From an uncultured Gammaproteobacteria bacterium (lineage in GTDB: Bacteria > Patescibacteriota > Patescibacteriia > Patescibacteriales > UBA12465): a stretch of 64,000 bases of DNA. Positions within the stretch are counted from its first letter, which is position 1. Each line of letters starts with the position of its first letter. Made by a program: the position numbers and the translations under genes. The notes under the pieces were generated by a model that was not told where the DNA came from, did not search any database, and worked only from the letters and a program-made list of their open reading frames with translations. Below, one piece after another: positions 891 to 45,356 of this stretch. Location of the stretch: contig CAZXZR010000001.1 in the NCBI GenBank assembly GCA_964645545.1, positions 27,526 through 91,525 of the forward strand. Reading direction: 5' to 3'.

Positions 891-1841
891 TCATTCCTTC
901 AAAGGATGGAATTTCTGCTGGGTTTTCCGGGCGTAAAGATCGGAGGCGTGGACGTAACGGGTAGTCGTATCCAAAGACTCGTGGCCCAAGAGTACCTGAA
1001 TGGCGGCCGGATTGGCGCCGGCCTCGGCCAAATAGGTGGCGAAACCGTGGCGCAAGGAATGGGCGGAAACGGGAACATTAATGCCTAAAAGCTCGCGGTA
1101 ACGCTTTATTTTCGCCTGCAAATAATTAGGCGAAATTTTTTTATTCCGGGCCTGCGGGGAATTAAGGCCGCGATAGGGAACAAAGGCGAAAGGGGAGTCA
1201 TCCGCGCGGCCGTCCAGATAGGCGTTCAGGATCTTGAAGGCCCGCGGGGTCAGATAGACGAAGCGCTCTTTCTTGCCCTTGCCGAGGATGAAGATGCGCC
1301 CGCCCTTGTCAATCCGATCCATTTTCAAATTCACCAGTTCGGAAATTCTCATGCCCGTGGAAAACAGGACTTCCAGCATGGCCCGGTTCCTTAGGGCCAC
1401 GCGTCTGTCTTTTTCTATTTTGGAAGGGAACTCGATAAGCTTTATCAACTCGCCCAACTCCGCCACCTGCGGCTTTTTCTTAATGGTTTTAATCATCTTA
1501 ATCACGTCCGGTGGGAGCGGGGCAGGGTAATCCATTTCAATCAAGTACTTGAAATAGCTCCGCAGGACCGAAAGCATGCGGTTGATGGAATAGGCGTTCA
1601 AGCGTTTAAGGCCCGGGTGCCGGGCGGCCGTCTGGCGGTCAATGGAGGTCAAAAAGGCTTTATAGTGCAAAATGTCGCGTTTATTCAGGCGGCTAAAGGT
1701 AATTTTGACCTCGCCTAAAAAGTCGGCGAAGACTTTGAGATCGCGTTCATAATTATAAATTGTTTCCGGTGAATAATTATTAACCTTTAAATTCAAGAGG
1801 AAATCTTCTGAGAGGGGCAGGGACGGGGCTTGAGAAGGCAT
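891..1841 (-). CDS. xerC: Tyrosine site-specific recombinase, XerC/XerD family.
   Basis: C-terminal catalytic region HSLRHGFATYLAEAGANPAAIQVLLGHESLDTTTRYVH. N-terminal SAM-like core-binding domain. Ends in TGA. Confidence 0.8.
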   Translation of the reverse strand: MPSQAPSLPLSEDFLLNLKVNNYSPETIYNYERDLKVFADFLGEVKITFSRLNKRDILHYKAFLTSIDRQTAARHPGLKRLNAYSINRMLSVLRSYFKYLIEMDYPAPLPPDVIKMIKTIKKKPQVAELGELIKLIEFPSKIEKDRRVALRNRAMLEVLFSTGMRISELVNLKMDRIDKGGRIFILGKGKKERFVYLTPRAFKILNAYLDGRADDSPFAFVPYRGLNSPQARNKKISPNYLQAKIKRYRELLGINVPVSAHSLRHGFATYLAEAGANPAAIQVLLGHESLDTTTRYVHASDLYARKTQQKFHPLKE

Positions 1842-14233: not shown

Positions 14234-14261
14234 AACCGGCAAGGATAAATTTAAAGATAGG

Positions 14262-14296
14262 AAAAAAGGCCTCGAAATAATCGCGGCCTTTTTGGG
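14262..14296. terminator. Bidirectional intrinsic terminator.
   Basis: AAAAAGGCC-13 nt-GGCCTTTTT. Confidence 0.6.
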
Positions 14297-14310
14297 AGTC
14301 TAGTGTGTGC

Positions 14311-14568
14311 TTAGTGATGGGAATTGGTGAAATCGTTTACGATACCTGCCAGAAAGGCAATGAATAATGAGAAGCATATAGCTCCACTAATGATCATTTT
14401 CCACATATCGTGGGAGCCTCTCGCCCATCCACTGGTGTAATTCGCAGCAAAGCCAGCGAATAGAAAGATGGATAAGACGAATGCAACCATCCCGATAAAA
14501 CGGATTATAGGGCTGATCACTTTGATCACTTCCCATACTTTCACTAAAGCAACTTTACACTTTGGCAT
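14311..14568 (-). CDS. Small (85 aa) two-TM membrane protein. The gene is low-GC and flanked by AT-rich DNA and terminators.
   Basis: Two hydrophobic helices. Noticeably lower GC than neighbouring genes. Confidence 0.45.
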   Translation of the reverse strand: MPKCKVALVKVWEVIKVISPIIRFIGMVAFVLSIFLFAGFAANYTSGWARGSHDMWKMIISGAICFSLFIAFLAGIVNDFTNSHH

Positions 14569-14663
14569 TTTTCCTCCTTTTTTAAATGAACTGTATATAT
14601 TATATCATATTTTTATTCTAATGTCAATAAAAAATTGATACTAAAAATTAGCCAAATTAGAGG

Positions 14664-14699
14664 ATAAAAAACCTACCTCCAGCTGGGGTAGATTTTTTA
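14664..14699. terminator. Intrinsic terminator downstream of pyrG; it forms on both strands.
   Basis: CTACCTCCAG-CTGGGGTAG hairpin flanked by an A-run and a T-run. Confidence 0.6.
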
Positions 14700-14729
14700 T
14701 ATCTTAATTCTATTTTACTAGCCCTCGTC

Positions 14730-41593: not shown

Positions 41594-41665
41594 ATTATAA
41601 CAGAAAATATCTTTCTTAACCAGCCCTTTAAAAAAGATAAATTGAGCCTGGAAAGATCAATTTAA

Positions 41666-41694
41666 TTGACATTTTCAACCACTGGTGATAAAAT
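41666..41694 (+). promoter_or_regulatory. Near-consensus sigma70 promoter of small transcription unit 1.
   Basis: TTGACA, 17 nt, TAAAAT. Confidence 0.55.
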
Positions 41695-41700
41695 TAAAAC

Positions 41701-41916
41701 AGACTTTCTTTAAAATATTAAAATATCCGTCCGGAGTTTCTTTTCTCCTTTTTGGGTTAATATAATAAGTTGTATTCAAATTTTTCATTTTACCCCTTTT
41801 CTCCGGACGGACCTTATTATCATCCTGATCGTGAAGGCTCGGTATAGTTCTTTTCCGGGTCTTCCCGGCAGGCCCTTTCCTATAAGCCCCCGACGTTTAA
41901 TGAAGGGGGTTTTTCC
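41701..41916 (+). ncRNA. Candidate structured small RNA, unit 1 (about 215 nt). It has a conserved 5' motif, an 11-bp long-range helix (41726-41736 with 41800-41810) and an intrinsic terminator (CCCCC-loop-GGGGG followed by TTTTT).
   Basis: Promoter and terminator bracket the unit. There is no conserved ORF. It is a paralog of unit 2, with compensatory base changes in the helix. Confidence 0.5.
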
Positions 41917-41919
41917 TTT

Positions 41920-41948
41920 TTGACATTTTTTTGTTAAGGAGATATAAT
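41920..41948 (+). promoter_or_regulatory. Consensus sigma70 promoter of small transcription unit 2.
   Basis: TTGACA, 17 nt, TATAAT (perfect consensus). Confidence 0.6.
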
Positions 41949-41954
41949 AAAAAT

Positions 41955-42169
41955 AAGCTTAGTTCCTTTAAAATATTTAAAATATCCGCCTGGGGTTTCT
42001 TTTCAAAGTTAATAATATGGAATATAATTTGGGAAATATTAAGGTTAACCTGCATTTCTCCCCGGGCGGACCCCATGCCCGTCTGGAGCGTTGTATCTCC
42101 GGACTTGTTCCCTCTTGTTAGCTCCTACGGGTATTCGCCCCCGTCTCGCTCATCGACGGGGGCTTTTTA
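41955..42169 (+). ncRNA. Candidate structured small RNA, unit 2 (about 215 nt). It has the same 5' motif as unit 1, an 11-bp helix (41985-41995 with 42060-42070) and an intrinsic terminator (GCCCCCGTC-loop-GACGGGGGC followed by TTTTT).
   Basis: As for unit 1. The 79-aa ORF in the track (41931..42170) starts upstream of the -10 element and is probably not coding. Confidence 0.5.
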
Positions 42170-42233
42170 AAAAAGTCACCACTAATCCTTATCTTTAAAT
42201 TGACTAATTGGCCACCCGATCGGCATCGACGCT

Positions 42234-42326: not shown

Positions 42327-43445
42327 ATGGAACCGAATATTTACTGCGATCTGGACAGGCCGGAATCGATTTACGCTATTGCCTCTATCCTGACCAGCCT
42401 GATAAATGGTGGGGATAAAAAAAATTCACTAAGAGAGGCGATAGAAAGCGGCACTTACTATGAGGAGTTTGACGAATATTATGAGGATCAAGATTTTGAC
42501 GAGGAAGATCCGGAGAAGACGGGAAGTGAAGAGCAAAAACATTTTTTCTATTGTTATTCCAGCGGCCTTAAACAGCTCTTGAAAAATCCACCGACCCGAC
42601 CGGCTTTCCTCTTAAATATCGGCCCGAAAAATAAAAAAGAAGCTGAATTGCTGGCTGAATTCGCCTACCGCTACGGCCATCGGATTATCCTCTGGCTGGA
42701 TAATCATCAATGGCCAAAAAAATTTTTAGCGTTCGCGCAAAAATGCTTACGGGATCATGGTCACGACCTGGAAATTTATTCCGAAGCTTCCTGTTTGCCA
42801 AAAATGGAAAAGTTGGGCTATCTAATCTTACCCCGTTGGTTAGTGGAAGCGGAACAAATGGCCTTAAAGCGCATGAAGGCGGCTGTACTCTATTATTATC
42901 GCGCTTATCGCGTCTGCAAAGTCGGCGATCAAATTGATCCGCAAGCCTATTTGGTCACAAAATTTTTCATCCACGCTGGTATAAGCGTTTGTCTGGATAG
43001 CCCCGATAAATTTATAGATGATAATTATATGGCCTATACCCACATGAAAGCGACGAGCAAGCGCGCGGCGGAAAAAATTCGTCATAAAAGTTTGGTTTTT
43101 CAAAACAGCCCTCGCGACCCCAAAATCGCTTACGTGAATTTAGGGCGCATCGGGCGCTTCCTTGATTTCCAAGTTTTAACCCGGGAAGCGCGCCGGAAAT
43201 ATCCCTATCTCTACATTATTCAATATCTGTATAATAAAAGGTCTTACACTAAAATCTGTTCCAAGGCCTTTGATCCCGAACTTGTCTTAAAAGTTTTGGG
43301 AAAAGACCAACTTAAATTCATTCGGGAAAATAATGCCAAGGGCCTAAAACTCATTTGGGAAAACCTGAAATTTGTTTCCCCTCCTCGTTCCCGAAACGAA
43401 CGAGGATGTTTCACGGAACCATTAAAAAGGCCTGTTCGCATATGA
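42327..43445 (+). CDS. Hypothetical 372-aa protein with a strongly acidic N-terminal segment (YYEEFDEYYEDQDFDEEDPE). No recognised domain.
   Basis: Long ORF ending in TGA, followed by an intrinsic terminator. It lies in the AT-rich island. Confidence 0.5.
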   Translation: MEPNIYCDLDRPESIYAIASILTSLINGGDKKNSLREAIESGTYYEEFDEYYEDQDFDEEDPEKTGSEEQKHFFYCYSSGLKQLLKNPPTRPAFLLNIGPKNKKEAELLAEFAYRYGHRIILWLDNHQWPKKFLAFAQKCLRDHGHDLEIYSEASCLPKMEKLGYLILPRWLVEAEQMALKRMKAAVLYYYRAYRVCKVGDQIDPQAYLVTKFFIHAGISVCLDSPDKFIDDNYMAYTHMKATSKRAAEKIRHKSLVFQNSPRDPKIAYVNLGRIGRFLDFQVLTREARRKYPYLYIIQYLYNKRSYTKICSKAFDPELVLKVLGKDQLKFIRENNAKGLKLIWENLKFVSPPRSRNERGCFTEPLKRPVRI

Positions 43446-43491: not shown

Positions 43492-44280
43492 TCAAAAAGA
43501 AAAATGACTCTGCCTGGATTTCCCGCCCTCTTTCTCTGTCTTCTCCCGAGCGAAGGCATAGGCGCAATAATCACAATCTGGAGCAGCGGCGGGAATTTTA
43601 TCCGCCACTAAAGAACGCCGGGCTTTAAGAAGCGCCCCTTCCACCCAGCGGTCGTTGCCTCTATAAGGAATAATCTTGACGTCAAATTCCAATTTGGCAT
43701 CAAAGGCTTCTTTGTCGGCGTCGCCGTTACAATAAACGAAATAGCCGGTGTCAGAAATTTTTAACCCATTACGGCGCAAAAGCCACTGATAAATTTCCAT
43801 TTGCCGCTTATACCCGATCTGCCAATCGGCGTCCAAATTAACTTCTTCGCTTTTGCTCGTCGCTTTGTAATCCACCACATAAACCGTGCCCTGACCGTCC
43901 GTCCAAAGATCATCTACGGCGCCGGTAACCAGAAAATTGGAGGCCGGGTGCAAAAATTGCACGCCTTGAAAATTATCGCGCCATTCATTTAAACGCGGAT
44001 CGGCTAAAGGCACGAGCTTAAGACCGTAAGCTTTCATTAAGGGATGGGCGCTGTTTTTGGCGCGATGGCGGTCAAATTCTTTTTTTAATAATTTATCCAC
44101 GGCCGAATTCAAGGTGAAAGGAAAACCCGGCGGCCTTTCTACGCCTAAGCGACGATCAAGATAAAAACAGCGCGGGCAATTCAAAAATAGATCCAATTTG
44201 GAGCGACTAAGTTTAAAAGGCAGGCGACTTTTGGGGTTAAAAAGGTTGTGCCGGCGATTGGAGTTATAGTAAACAGACAT
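43492..44280 (-). CDS. PD-(D/E)XK nuclease, Cas4/RecB-like (DUF83-type), with a probable Fe-S cysteine cluster.
   Basis: Motif II/III VYVVDYKATSK. QhxxY motif QMEIYQWL. Four Cys: N-terminal CPRC and C-terminal CDYC. Confidence 0.7.
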   Translation of the reverse strand: MSVYYNSNRRHNLFNPKSRLPFKLSRSKLDLFLNCPRCFYLDRRLGVERPPGFPFTLNSAVDKLLKKEFDRHRAKNSAHPLMKAYGLKLVPLADPRLNEWRDNFQGVQFLHPASNFLVTGAVDDLWTDGQGTVYVVDYKATSKSEEVNLDADWQIGYKRQMEIYQWLLRRNGLKISDTGYFVYCNGDADKEAFDAKLEFDVKIIPYRGNDRWVEGALLKARRSLVADKIPAAAPDCDYCAYAFAREKTEKEGGKSRQSHFSF

Positions 44281-44370
44281 ATTTTTAGAAATTATTTAGT
44301 TAATTTTAGCTAATAATATACTTGTGGATAAATTGTGTTAAAATTGGGAATAAATCATAAGAAAAAAGCC

Positions 44371-44398
44371 TTGTCAAAATAGAAAGAAGTGCTAATAT
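44371..44398 (+). promoter_or_regulatory. Promoter of the large RNA candidate.
   Basis: TTGTCA, 16 nt, TAATAT. Confidence 0.45.
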
Positions 44399-44404
44399 AT
44401 AGTC

Positions 44405-44787
44405 ATGTACGTTTGGTACGTAATCCCGATCAAGTGCAAAGGGTGTCCTTGCGCAAGCAAGGACTCTTGATCGGGCCGTTGCACTTCAAACTAGAATTCA
44501 AACGGCATCCGACCCCCCGTAGAGTTTATCCTATATCCTTGGGAGAAGCGCGAAAGCCTCGGGTAAGGCTCGGCGACTCAAACAGAGCCTTAAAACCGTA
44601 CGTTGTCACGGTGGGGTGGACCGGGCACAATGACAATGTCCGAAGGGTATGAAGATTTGCAAGTCTTCATAAACTCTCGGGGCCGGAAAAGCCGAAAAAA
44701 GAAACTCTCCATTGTGTATTGTGTATCTATTTCGATTCTGGGACACTTCGGAGATAGAGCTTGCGCGCCAGTGCAAGCTCTTTTTTT
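44405..44787 (+). ncRNA. Candidate large (~385 nt) highly structured RNA of unknown family, ending in a strong intrinsic terminator (GAGCTTGC-gcgccagt-GCAAGCTC followed by TTTTTTT).
   Basis: Multiple perfect helices: a 9-bp CCGATCAAG/CTTGATCGG helix enclosing TCCTTGC-GCAA-GCAAGGA, plus GCCGTT/AACGGC and TATGAAGA/TCTTCATA. Only Arg-rich, implausible ORFs. Flanked by a promoter and a terminator. Confidence 0.45.
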
Positions 44788-44821
44788 ATATACGCTTTTC
44801 TTTAGGCTCCAAACCTTATTA

Positions 44822-45290
44822 TTACTTCATTATTACTTCCTTCACGCTTTTATAATACCGCAATAAAAGGCTGGTTAAAGCACCGCCGCCATCACAACGA
44901 TAACCGTAAGGTTCACGGAAAGCGACAATGGTCATGCCCGGTTTGATGTTGGCCGGGTGTAAAAGCAAGCGCATGTCGGTCAAGCCGACACAAGTCGCTC
45001 CCCAAATCAGAATAAGTTGGTCGCCATTACCGGTGTCGCAGAAGGCGGTAATGCCATTTTTCATATAACCTTTTTAATCTGAACTTCGTTGGCCATTATA
45101 CAAGCTAAACAACCGGTACGGGCGAGATCATTGGCTGTCATAGTAATTGGTTCCCAGCCCAGATGATAGAAAACCTCTGGCGTACCAATGAGACTGAAGA
45201 ATTATGGCTTCCCACCGGCGCCGTCATTTTCCATTTCTTCCATCACGATCGGCGGAGTGTTGATGTCCCGTTCGGGATAAAAAAAGTTAA
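44822..45290 (-). pseudogene. Frameshifted or stop-interrupted remnants of a gene of unidentified family (three minus-strand frame segments).
   Basis: Manual translation gives contiguous fragments in different frames (...YPERDINTPPIVMEEMENDGAGGKP*, ...PEVFYHLGWEPITMTANDLARTGCLACIMANEVQIKKVI*, then the 80-aa MKNGITAFCDTGNGD... ORF). Confidence 0.4.
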
Positions 45291-45324
45291 TCTAACTTAA
45301 TTTCCCTAAACTCTTAACCATTCC

Positions 45325-45356
45325 GAGCTTGTCTTACTAAAGGCAAGCTTTTTTAT
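45325..45356. terminator. Hairpin with a T-run on the plus strand, overlapping the 3' end of the metallophosphoesterase gene.
   Basis: GAGCTTG-tcttactaaag-CAAGCTT followed by TTTTT. Confidence 0.3.

What the first reader, a model, noticed from the sequence alone, without database searches (positions are those of the whole stretch)
44371..44790. A ~385-nt highly structured RNA candidate with its own promoter and terminator, divergent from a Cas4-like nuclease gene
The region carries a TTGTCA-16-TAATAT promoter and a strong terminator (GAGCTTGC...GCAAGCTC followed by T7). The sequence between them folds into many perfect helices. A 9-bp helix encloses a 7-bp GCAA-tetraloop hairpin, and there are further helices capped by GNRA-like loops. 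Its only ORFs are Arg-rich and implausible as proteins. It lacks the RNase P P4 motif (GGAAAGUCCGG) and the tRNA-like ends of tmRNA. I therefore cannot assign it to a known family, and it may be an undescribed large non-coding RNA. Its neighbours are a PD-(D/E)XK nuclease and decayed gene fragments, which suggests a mobile or defence context.
Basis: seen in the sequence. Interest (0 to 1): 0.7.

Follow-up and report, generated by a model that had tools for sequence, protein, structure and literature searches.

The report
Orphan structured RNA gene, family unknown
A roughly 383-base stretch in a Patescibacteria genome looks like a self-contained gene for a tightly folded non-coding RNA, but it matches no known RNA family and no relative was found, so what it does cannot yet be tested.

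Summary
There is an extended -10 promoter (TTGTCA, 16-nt spacer, TGcTAATAT; 44371-44398) and a strong terminator (44756-44781 followed by seven T). The ~383 nt between them fold far better than shuffles (z -5.9) and have a G+C peak of 0.49-0.55 against 0.26-0.33 in the flanks.

It matches none of the 4227 Rfam families, even at E<=10. It has no RNase P P4 motif and no tmRNA features.

The context reading is not supported. The "Cas4-like" neighbour is a conserved Patescibacteria protein in a conserved SOD/S2/EF-Ts neighbourhood. About 70 of 87 related loci have under 200 nt upstream of it, leaving no room for such an RNA.

The "decayed fragments" are remnants of a PurM-like gene that is intact in the nearest relatives. 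The RNA unit sits where that gene's last ~164 codons should be, with no residual similarity. It is therefore a lineage-specific replacement.

No homolog was found in phage, plasmid, viral, metagenome or protein collections, or in about 0.69 Mb of related loci searched with a covariance model. The only other copies are 100% identical. Covariation cannot be tested.

Best reading: a recently acquired, stand-alone structured ncRNA of unknown function, most likely acting in trans (confidence about 0.45). Interest is moderate.

The parts
44371..44398 (+). Sigma-70-type promoter: -35 TTGTCA (44371-44376), 16-nt spacer, extended -10 TGcTAATAT (44390-44398). Predicted start is near A44405.
   Evidence: The start site is inferred from spacing only.
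44405..44787 (+). Predicted ~383-nt structured RNA transcript.
   Evidence: MFE -147.9 kcal/mol, z -5.9. 120 predicted pairs, 7 of them G-U, mostly with probability above 0.9. G+C 0.49-0.55 against 0.26-0.33 in the flanks.
44411..44491 (+). 5' domain: a long irregular hairpin. Helices are 44411-16/44486-91, 44420-24/44478-82, a perfect 10-bp helix 44425-34/44466-75, a 10-nt asymmetric loop UGCAAAGGGU, and an 8-bp GCAA-tetraloop hairpin at 44445-44464.
   Evidence: A mutually exclusive pairing of 44432-44442 with 44476-44486 (11 nt, 91% complementary) is listed (pair I11).
44503..44694 (+). Core multi-helix domain. It is closed by 44503-06/44691-94, 44508-11/44684-87, 44515-19/44678-82 and 44521-29/44669-77. 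Inside are helix 44533-40/44643-50 and hairpins 44564-71/44585-92, 44601-08/44631-38 and 44651-57/44662-68. A GAAA-capped hairpin at 44550-57 is predicted only weakly (probability 0.56).
   Evidence: Covariance model R1 was built from 44514-44684.
44695..44755 (+). A/U-rich, weakly structured 3' segment with the tandem heptamer AUUGUGU AUUGUGU (44711-44724). ACACUUCGGA (44743-44752) can pair either locally or with UCCGAAGGGU (44639-44648).
   Evidence: (repeat D2, inverted pair I1).
44756..44787 (+). Intrinsic terminator: an 11-bp stem with a 4-nt loop (44756-44781) whose last T begins a run of seven T (44781-44787).
   Evidence: mean pair probability 0.97.
44831..45246 (-). Remnants of a PurM-like (AIRS_C) gene. 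Residues 166-242 lie at 45064-44831 and residues 73-131 at 45246-45070 of the 406-411-aa proteins of relatives. The C-terminal ~164 codons are missing, and the RNA unit lies where they would be.
   Evidence: tblastn at 52-76% identity, E 1e-41 to 1e-46. The intact gene in relatives matches the purM model.

Best explanation
Window 44405-44787 (+) is most likely a stand-alone gene for a ~383-nt, densely folded non-coding RNA. It would be transcribed from its own extended -10 promoter and released at a strong intrinsic terminator.

It is a recent, lineage-specific acquisition. It occupies the position of the last ~164 codons of a PurM-like gene that is intact in the nearest sampled relatives and is a broken remnant here.

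It is not a partner of the neighbouring Cas4-like gene. The two merely share a divergent intergenic region.

My working mechanism is a stable RNA acting in trans. A rigid 5' hairpin domain and a multi-helix core would present short repeated single-stranded motifs (UUCAAAC twice, AUUGUGU twice, AAACUCUC twice) to a protein or to target RNAs.

Shown: the promoter and terminator signals, the fold statistics, the lack of coding capacity and family match, and the replacement of the gene's 3' part. Inferred: transcription, the strand, action in trans, and any function.
For: - Signals: the promoter has TG-extended -10, and the terminator heads the site list for the region.
- Fold: z -5.9 with a well-defined ensemble. 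Structure and G+C peak are confined to the unit.
- Coding: neither ORF has a Pfam match, and the 44389-44652 ORF has no protein relative.
- Assembly: the unit is 100% identical in the three other contigs that cover it, from two ENA samples and one JGI sample, so it is not an assembly artefact.
- Replacement: PurM-like remnants end at 44831, and there is no residual similarity across 44281-44830, although the surviving fragments keep 52-76% identity.
- Precedent nearby: the same genome carries two further promoter/terminator RNA-like units at 41650-42172. Their shared long stem differs at three of ten pairs yet stays paired (two changes on both sides, one G-C to G-U), so such cassettes do exist in this lineage.
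Against: - No homolog was found anywhere, so there is no covariation and no evidence of selection on the structure.
- It is absent from the closest relatives. It is therefore dispensable or very young.
- The minus strand folds as well as the plus strand.
- Promoter-like sites are not enriched locally.
- The two similar internal modules are a post hoc pattern. An unbiased self-alignment is not significant (z 0.7).
- There are no expression data.
Confidence: 0.45

Rival explanations
1. It is non-functional filler DNA. A piece of foreign or scrambled DNA replaced the 3' end of a dying gene and happens to carry promoter-like and terminator-like signals and stable hairpins.
For: It is an orphan, absent from relatives, and sits inside a decaying locus. 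Promoter-like hexamers occur at the chance rate here. Both strands fold equally well.
Against: A z of -5.9 was reached by none of 100 shuffles. A G+C island of 0.5 in 0.3 flanks coincides exactly with the promoter-to-terminator interval. Several perfect 8-10-bp helices with GNRA caps are not expected from random or decayed coding DNA. The surviving PurM-like fragments of the same gap score only z -1.3 to -2.6.
Confidence: 0.2
2. It is a remnant or cargo RNA of a mobile element, for example an orphaned guide-type RNA, an intron fragment or a MITE-like cassette that inserted into the PurM-like gene.
For: It replaces gene sequence with unrelated DNA. An imperfect 17-nt inverted repeat brackets the transcribed part (44383-44399 and 44787-44803, 76% complementary). 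An unrelated ~410-nt unit sits at the same position in the relative L084.
Against: There is no second copy in 64 kb and no copy in viral, plasmid or phage collections. There is no transposase, reverse transcriptase, TnpB or IscB nearby. No intron or omega-RNA family matches in Rfam. The inverted repeat is A/T-rich and weak.
Confidence: 0.13
3. It is an orphaned cis-regulatory leader (riboswitch or attenuator type) whose regulated gene was lost, now ending at its own terminator.
For: There are mutually exclusive pairings: 44432-42 with 44476-86, and 44625-48 with 44743-66. The second overlaps the 5' half of the terminator stem, as an antiterminator would (pairs I11 and I1). Two similar stem-loop modules resemble tandem aptamers.
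Against: No riboswitch, T-box or leader family scores, even at E<=10. No plus-strand gene lies downstream, only antisense pseudogene remnants. The putative switching strands are about 95 nt apart. The module pattern is post hoc.
Confidence: 0.1
4. It is a highly divergent housekeeping RNA (RNase P RNA, tmRNA, 6S or SRP RNA) that Rfam fails to recognise in this phylum.
For: The size fits RNase P or tmRNA. Rfam demonstrably under-scores a Patescibacteria RNase P-like RNA: L059 carries a canonical P4 motif but scores only 11.5 bits.
Against: There is no P4 motif within 3 mismatches. There is no tRNA-like domain and no recognisable tag reading frame. There are no local hits to any of these models. 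It is absent at this locus in the closest relatives and lies in a recent replacement, which is unlike an essential gene.
Confidence: 0.04
5. It is an mRNA for a tiny leaderless peptide (AUG at 44405, 21 codons, MYVWYVIPIKCKGCPCASKDS) with a long structured 3' region.
For: The AUG coincides with the predicted transcription start, and the peptide has a hydrophobic N-terminus and a Cys-rich C-terminus.
Against: There is no ribosome-binding site. The ORF is buried in the most stable helix. About 320 nt of structured RNA would be left unexplained. There is no homolog.
Confidence: 0.05

Closest known systems
Large structured bacterial ncRNAs of unknown or recently emerging function (OLE, GOLLD, ROOL, HEARO, raiA)
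   Same: A size of several hundred nucleotides, many helices with GNRA caps, its own promoter and terminator, no coding capacity, and a location in variable genomic regions.
   Different: No score against any of their Rfam models. Those classes are defined by wide conservation and covariation. This RNA is so far known from one organism only.
Bacterial RNase P RNA (Rfam RF00010/RF00011)
   Same: The length (~380 nt), a multi-domain fold and GNRA-capped helices.
   Different: It lacks the universally conserved P4 strands. Its 5' and 3' ends do not pair into a P1 helix in the predicted fold. There is no model hit.
tmRNA (SsrA)
   Same: The length, its own promoter and terminator, and the possibility of pseudoknot-like pairings.
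   Different: There is no tRNA-like acceptor/T-arm domain and no recognisable tag ORF.
Riboswitch and T-box leaders with terminator expression platforms
   Same: Alternative, mutually exclusive helices, one of which overlaps the terminator stem. A GGGUGGACCGGG stretch loosely recalls the T-box sequence; that resemblance is from memory only.
   Different: No family match, no downstream gene, and no leader of this type is recorded here for the phylum.
Protein-sequestering or base-pairing sRNAs (6S, CsrB/RsmZ type)
   Same: A stand-alone transcript ending in an intrinsic terminator, with short repeated single-stranded motifs.
   Different: It is about twice as long as 6S and is not rod-shaped. 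Its repeats are not GGA motifs. No partner protein or target has been identified.

Membership tests
Bacterial RNase P RNA | Conserved P4 helix strands (GAGGAAAGUCCGG ... ACAGAAnnnGGCUUA) | tested here: not met
   No match to GAGGAAAGTCCGG with up to 3 mismatches inside 44400-44790. The only ACAGA..CCUUA element forms a local 8-bp hairpin (44564-44592), not a long-range P4.
Bacterial RNase P RNA | Score against the Rfam covariance models RF00010/RF00011 | tested here: not met
   No hit at gathering score or at E<=10. Caveat: the model also under-scores an RNase P-like RNA of a related organism.
tmRNA | tRNA-like domain (acceptor stem, T arm, CCA-proximal 3' end) | tested here: not met
   ARAGORN finds no tmRNA, standard or permuted, in the window. 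There is no Rfam hit.
tmRNA | Tag-peptide reading frame ending in hydrophobic or Ala-rich residues | tested here: not met
   Three-frame translation shows no such frame.
Riboswitch / T-box / leader RNAs | Match to a curated aptamer or leader model, and a regulated gene downstream on the same strand | tested here: not met
   No Rfam match. Downstream there are only antisense pseudogene remnants.
6S, SRP, OLE, GOLLD, ROOL, HEARO, raiA and other Rfam 15 families | Covariance-model score at or near the gathering threshold | tested here: not met
   Zero hits at gathering score in the whole window. Only chance-level hairpin matches at E<=10.
CRISPR-Cas-associated RNA (tracrRNA, crRNA, leader) | A bona fide cas gene and a repeat-spacer array nearby | tested here: not met
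   The neighbour scores 28.5 bits against the 65-bit cutoff of TIGR00372 cas4. There are no interspaced or tandem arrays in 64 kb. The protein is conserved across Patescibacteria, mostly without room for an RNA beside it.
Conserved structured ncRNA (generic criterion) | Homologs in other genomes with compensatory base changes | not testable with these tools
   No homolog was retrieved. The only other copies are 100% identical.

The most novel reading that the evidence does not exclude
The unit is the first sampled representative of a new class of large structured RNA in Patescibacteria. It would belong to a wider, unrecognised phenomenon in which self-contained 'promoter - structured RNA - terminator' cassettes colonise decaying or variable intergenic space around the conserved Cas4-like gene. 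The cassettes seen so far are this RNA, the paralogous pair at 41650-42172, and an unrelated ~410-nt unit at the same site in the relative L084. This could be a form of RNA-gene mobility or rapid de novo birth of RNA genes in reduced genomes.
Probability: 0.15. Interest if true: 0.65.

Novelty: new member of a known kind. Interest (0 to 1): 0.4.

Why it matters
Patescibacteria have tiny genomes and poorly charted RNA biology. A 383-nt RNA with its own strong promoter and terminator and no relation to any catalogued family would be a new RNA gene in a lineage where non-coding DNA is scarce.

Its position, replacing part of a dying housekeeping-type gene, gives a datable example of how such genes are gained. 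Its practical value is limited until expression is shown and homologs are found, because a single-lineage orphan cannot yet be tested for conserved structure.

A side result also matters for annotation. Rfam models can miss RNase P-like RNAs in this phylum, so 'no Rfam hit' is weaker evidence here than usual.

Tried and rejected
1. Known family. Rfam at gathering score over the whole window and at E<=10 on the region, ARAGORN, a P4 motif search and tag-frame inspection were all negative.

2. Conserved partner of the Cas4-like gene. In 80 GTDB loci and 7 metagenome loci around homologs, blastn and nhmmer found nothing. Most loci have no upstream gap. Rejected.

3. Orthology with the ~410-nt unit upstream of the Cas4-like gene in L084. 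The two share only the extended -10 box, which also occurs before a protein-coding gene in L052. Local alignment gives z -0.5. The covariance model of the core with filters off scores at most 5.7 bits there. Rejected.

4. Decayed remainder of the PurM-like gene. No tblastn similarity at E<=10 across 44281-44830, although neighbouring fragments keep 52-76% identity. Rejected in favour of replacement.

5. Multi-copy or mobile element. There is no second copy in the window and none in phages, plasmids or IMG/VR.

6. Family-level motif scan of JGI metagenomes. I used positions shared by the two internal modules. The 17 hits were all chance matches, mostly in coding DNA and without the expected hairpin.

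7. Spurious-ORF trick. Searching the 87-aa translation against 5.8 billion proteins gave no candidate.

8. Internal duplication as built-in covariation. The module pattern occurs twice against 0.06 expected, but it was derived from the data, and an unbiased alignment is not significant. I keep it only as a hint.

9. Defence context. PADLOC found only weak Cas4 hits on the one protein, and there are no arrays.

Full report
**Observation**

- Promoter: a -35 TTGTCA (44371-44376) lies 16 nt upstream of TAATAT (44393-44398), preceded by TG (44390-44391). This gives an extended -10 promoter.
- Terminator: an 11-bp stem with a 4-nt loop at 44756-44781 runs into seven T. It heads the list of terminator-like sites in a 3-kb scan.
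- Fold: the ~383 nt between them fold to -147.9 kcal/mol, against -114 +/- 5.8 for dinucleotide-preserving shuffles (z -5.9, none of 100 shuffles as good).
- Ensemble: 120 pairs are predicted, most with probability above 0.9.
- Helices: there is a perfect 10-bp helix around a perfect 8-bp GCAA hairpin, a 9-bp plus 5-bp helix closing a multi-branched core, and several 7-8-bp hairpins.
- Localisation: in 150-nt sliding windows the structure signal is confined to about 44350-44800. It coincides with a G+C island of 0.49-0.55 in flanks of 0.26-0.33.

Two cautions apply. The minus strand folds nearly as well (z -6.1), so the strand assignment rests on the promoter and the T run. Promoter-like hexamers as a class occur at the chance rate in this region.

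**Not a known RNA**

Rfam 15 (4227 families) gives no hit at gathering score anywhere in the 64-kb window. On the region alone at E<=10 it gives only chance hairpin matches. ARAGORN finds no tRNA or tmRNA. The RNase P P4 motif is absent even with three mismatches, and no tmRNA-like tag frame exists.

Neither 87-aa ORF has a Pfam match. The one at 44389-44652 has no relative among 5.8 billion predicted proteins.

One caveat emerged. In a related organism (L059) an RNA with a canonical P4 5' strand scores only 11.5 bits against the RNase P model. Rfam is therefore less reliable in this phylum. For this RNA the absence of the P4 motif itself is the stronger argument.

**Context**

The window is ordinary chromosomal DNA of a Patescibacteria (Parcubacteria-type) bacterium. 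It carries EF-Ts, ribosomal protein S2, superoxide dismutase and tRNA-guanine transglycosylase.

The divergent 'Cas4-like' gene (43492-44280, minus strand) belongs to a family with more than 8000 members at 60-76% identity across the phylum. It scores below the cas4 equivalog cutoff. It sits in a conserved Cas4-like / SOD / S2 / EF-Ts arrangement in the three closest relatives.

Of 87 loci around homologs from other genomes, about 70 have less than 200 nt upstream of that gene, too little to hold a ~380-nt RNA. None shows any similarity to the RNA. No repeat arrays occur in the window. The 'mobile or defence context' is therefore not supported.

**What the 'decayed fragments' are**

In relatives L081 and L087, a 406-411-aa PurM-like (AIRS_C) gene ends 75-125 nt upstream of the Cas4-like gene. 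In the window only two pieces survive on the minus strand. Residues 73-131 lie at 45246-45070 and residues 166-242 at 45064-44831, at 52-76% identity.

The missing C-terminal ~164 codons (about 490 nt) would occupy exactly the interval now holding the promoter, RNA and terminator. Yet 44281-44830 shows no residual similarity even at E<=10. The RNA unit therefore replaced the 3' part of a gene that was being lost. It is a lineage-specific, evolutionarily recent acquisition and not an ancestral neighbour.

**Search for relatives**

All of the following were negative:
- blastn and nhmmer against 87 related loci;
- phage and plasmid collections;
- five IMG/VR pattern scans, whose two matches were chance matches in coding DNA;
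- a JGI metagenome scan with a degenerate motif, which returned 17 chance hits;
- a search with the translated ORF;
- a covariance model of the 171-nt core over about 0.69 Mb of Patescibacteria loci.

The only other copies come from the same organism in other samples and are 100% identical. The organism's Cas4-like protein is 70-76% identical to all others, so no close relative has been sampled. Covariation, the decisive test, cannot be run.

A ~410-nt promoter/terminator unit lies at the same relative position in L084 (z -4.5). It is unrelated by sequence and by structure model. The shared 14-nt AGTGCTAATATATA is largely a generic strong -10 element, most of which (GTGCTAATAT) is also seen before a protein-coding gene in L052.

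**Internal features**

Two stem-loop modules share the layout GU(G/C)C(A/G)AAGGGU, an 8-bp hairpin with GCAA in the loop, then 13 nt, then UCGGG(G)CCG (44439-44478 and 44643-44685). Their helices differ in sequence. This would be paralogous covariation, but the pattern was derived from the data. An unbiased self-alignment is not significant (z 0.7). I treat it as a hint only.

Each module's AAGGG motif has a complementary partner downstream:
- 44432-42 pairs with 44476-86;
- 44639-48 pairs with 44743-52, within a longer 24-nt complementarity (pair I1) that extends into the 5' half of the terminator stem.

So alternative conformations are possible. Short direct repeats lie mostly in linker segments: UUCAAAC twice, AUUGUGU twice and AAACUCUC twice.

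**Explanations**

Best supported (about 0.45): a stand-alone, recently acquired structured ncRNA that acts in trans as a folded scaffold presenting repeated single-stranded motifs. Only the signals, the fold and the replacement event are shown. Transcription and function are inferred.

Rivals:
- non-functional inserted DNA (0.2);
- RNA cargo or remnant of a mobile element (0.13);
- an orphaned riboswitch or attenuator leader (0.1);
- a leaderless 21-codon peptide mRNA (0.05);
- a divergent housekeeping RNA (0.04).

**Comparison and novelty**

In size and architecture it resembles the large orphan RNAs found by comparative genomics (OLE, GOLLD, ROOL, HEARO, raiA) and is in the size range of RNase P RNA and tmRNA. 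It fails every tested membership feature of these.

If real, it is a new RNA family within the familiar kind 'stand-alone structured bacterial ncRNA'. Interest is moderate (0.4). The candidate is clean and sits in a phylum with little known RNA biology, but it is a single-lineage orphan without expression or conservation evidence.

Noticed in passing
window 41650-42172 (+): Two tandem paralogous RNA-like units of about 230-250 nt. Each has a TTGACA-17-TA(A/T)AAT promoter and an intrinsic terminator (z -4.0 and -3.5; the whole gap scores z -7.6). Their long stem differs at three of ten pairs yet stays paired, two of them by changes on both sides (CCGUCCGGAG/CUCCGGACGG against CCGCCUGGGG/CCCCGGGCGG). 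No Rfam family matches. The units are absent from relatives, whose equivalent gap is only 140-250 nt. The source annotation calls a 34-aa ORF inside the second unit.
   Followed up: partly
L084 5405-5815 (-), also L085 and L086: In a relative whose Cas4-like protein is 74% identical, a different ~410-nt promoter/terminator unit (z -4.5) occupies the same position upstream of that gene. Two more small promoter/terminator units follow it. It is unrelated to the window RNA by sequence and by covariance model, and no Rfam family matches.
   Followed up: partly
L059 about 1340-1745 (-): An RNase P-like RNA with a canonical P4 5' strand (GAGGAAAGUCCGG) and an AGAUGAAACGGCUAAAUCC 3' element. It has no obvious P1-P3 upstream. 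The Rfam RNaseP_bact_a model scores it at only 11.5 bits, so standard models may miss rnpB in some Patescibacteria.
   Followed up: partly
window 44831-45246 (-): A PurM-like (AIRS_C) pseudogene. Two in-frame fragments survive, with an internal 34-residue deletion and loss of both the N-terminal ~72 and the C-terminal ~164 codons. The 80-aa ORF at 44822-45064 is its remnant.
   Followed up: yes
window 45247-45352, compared with L087 1-5875: Between the metallophosphoesterase gene and the PurM-like gene, relative L087 carries four further genes (a radical SAM protein, DUF3850, a 778-aa protein and a bPH_2 protein). They are missing at this position in the window. The junction holds a plus-strand-only terminator-like hairpin (45325-45350).
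   Followed up: no
window 42327-43445 (+): A 372-aa protein with an acidic N-terminal stretch. It has no Pfam, NCBIfam or PADLOC match. It is only 25% identical to the protein at the same position in the closest relative, so it is a fast-evolving gene convergent with the Cas4-like gene.
   Followed up: partly
window 14310-14567 (-): A small membrane-protein ORF with a perfect TTGACA-17-TATAAT promoter (with TG), a ribosome-binding site and a terminator. It accounts for the structured 'gap' at 14234-14729.
   Followed up: partly
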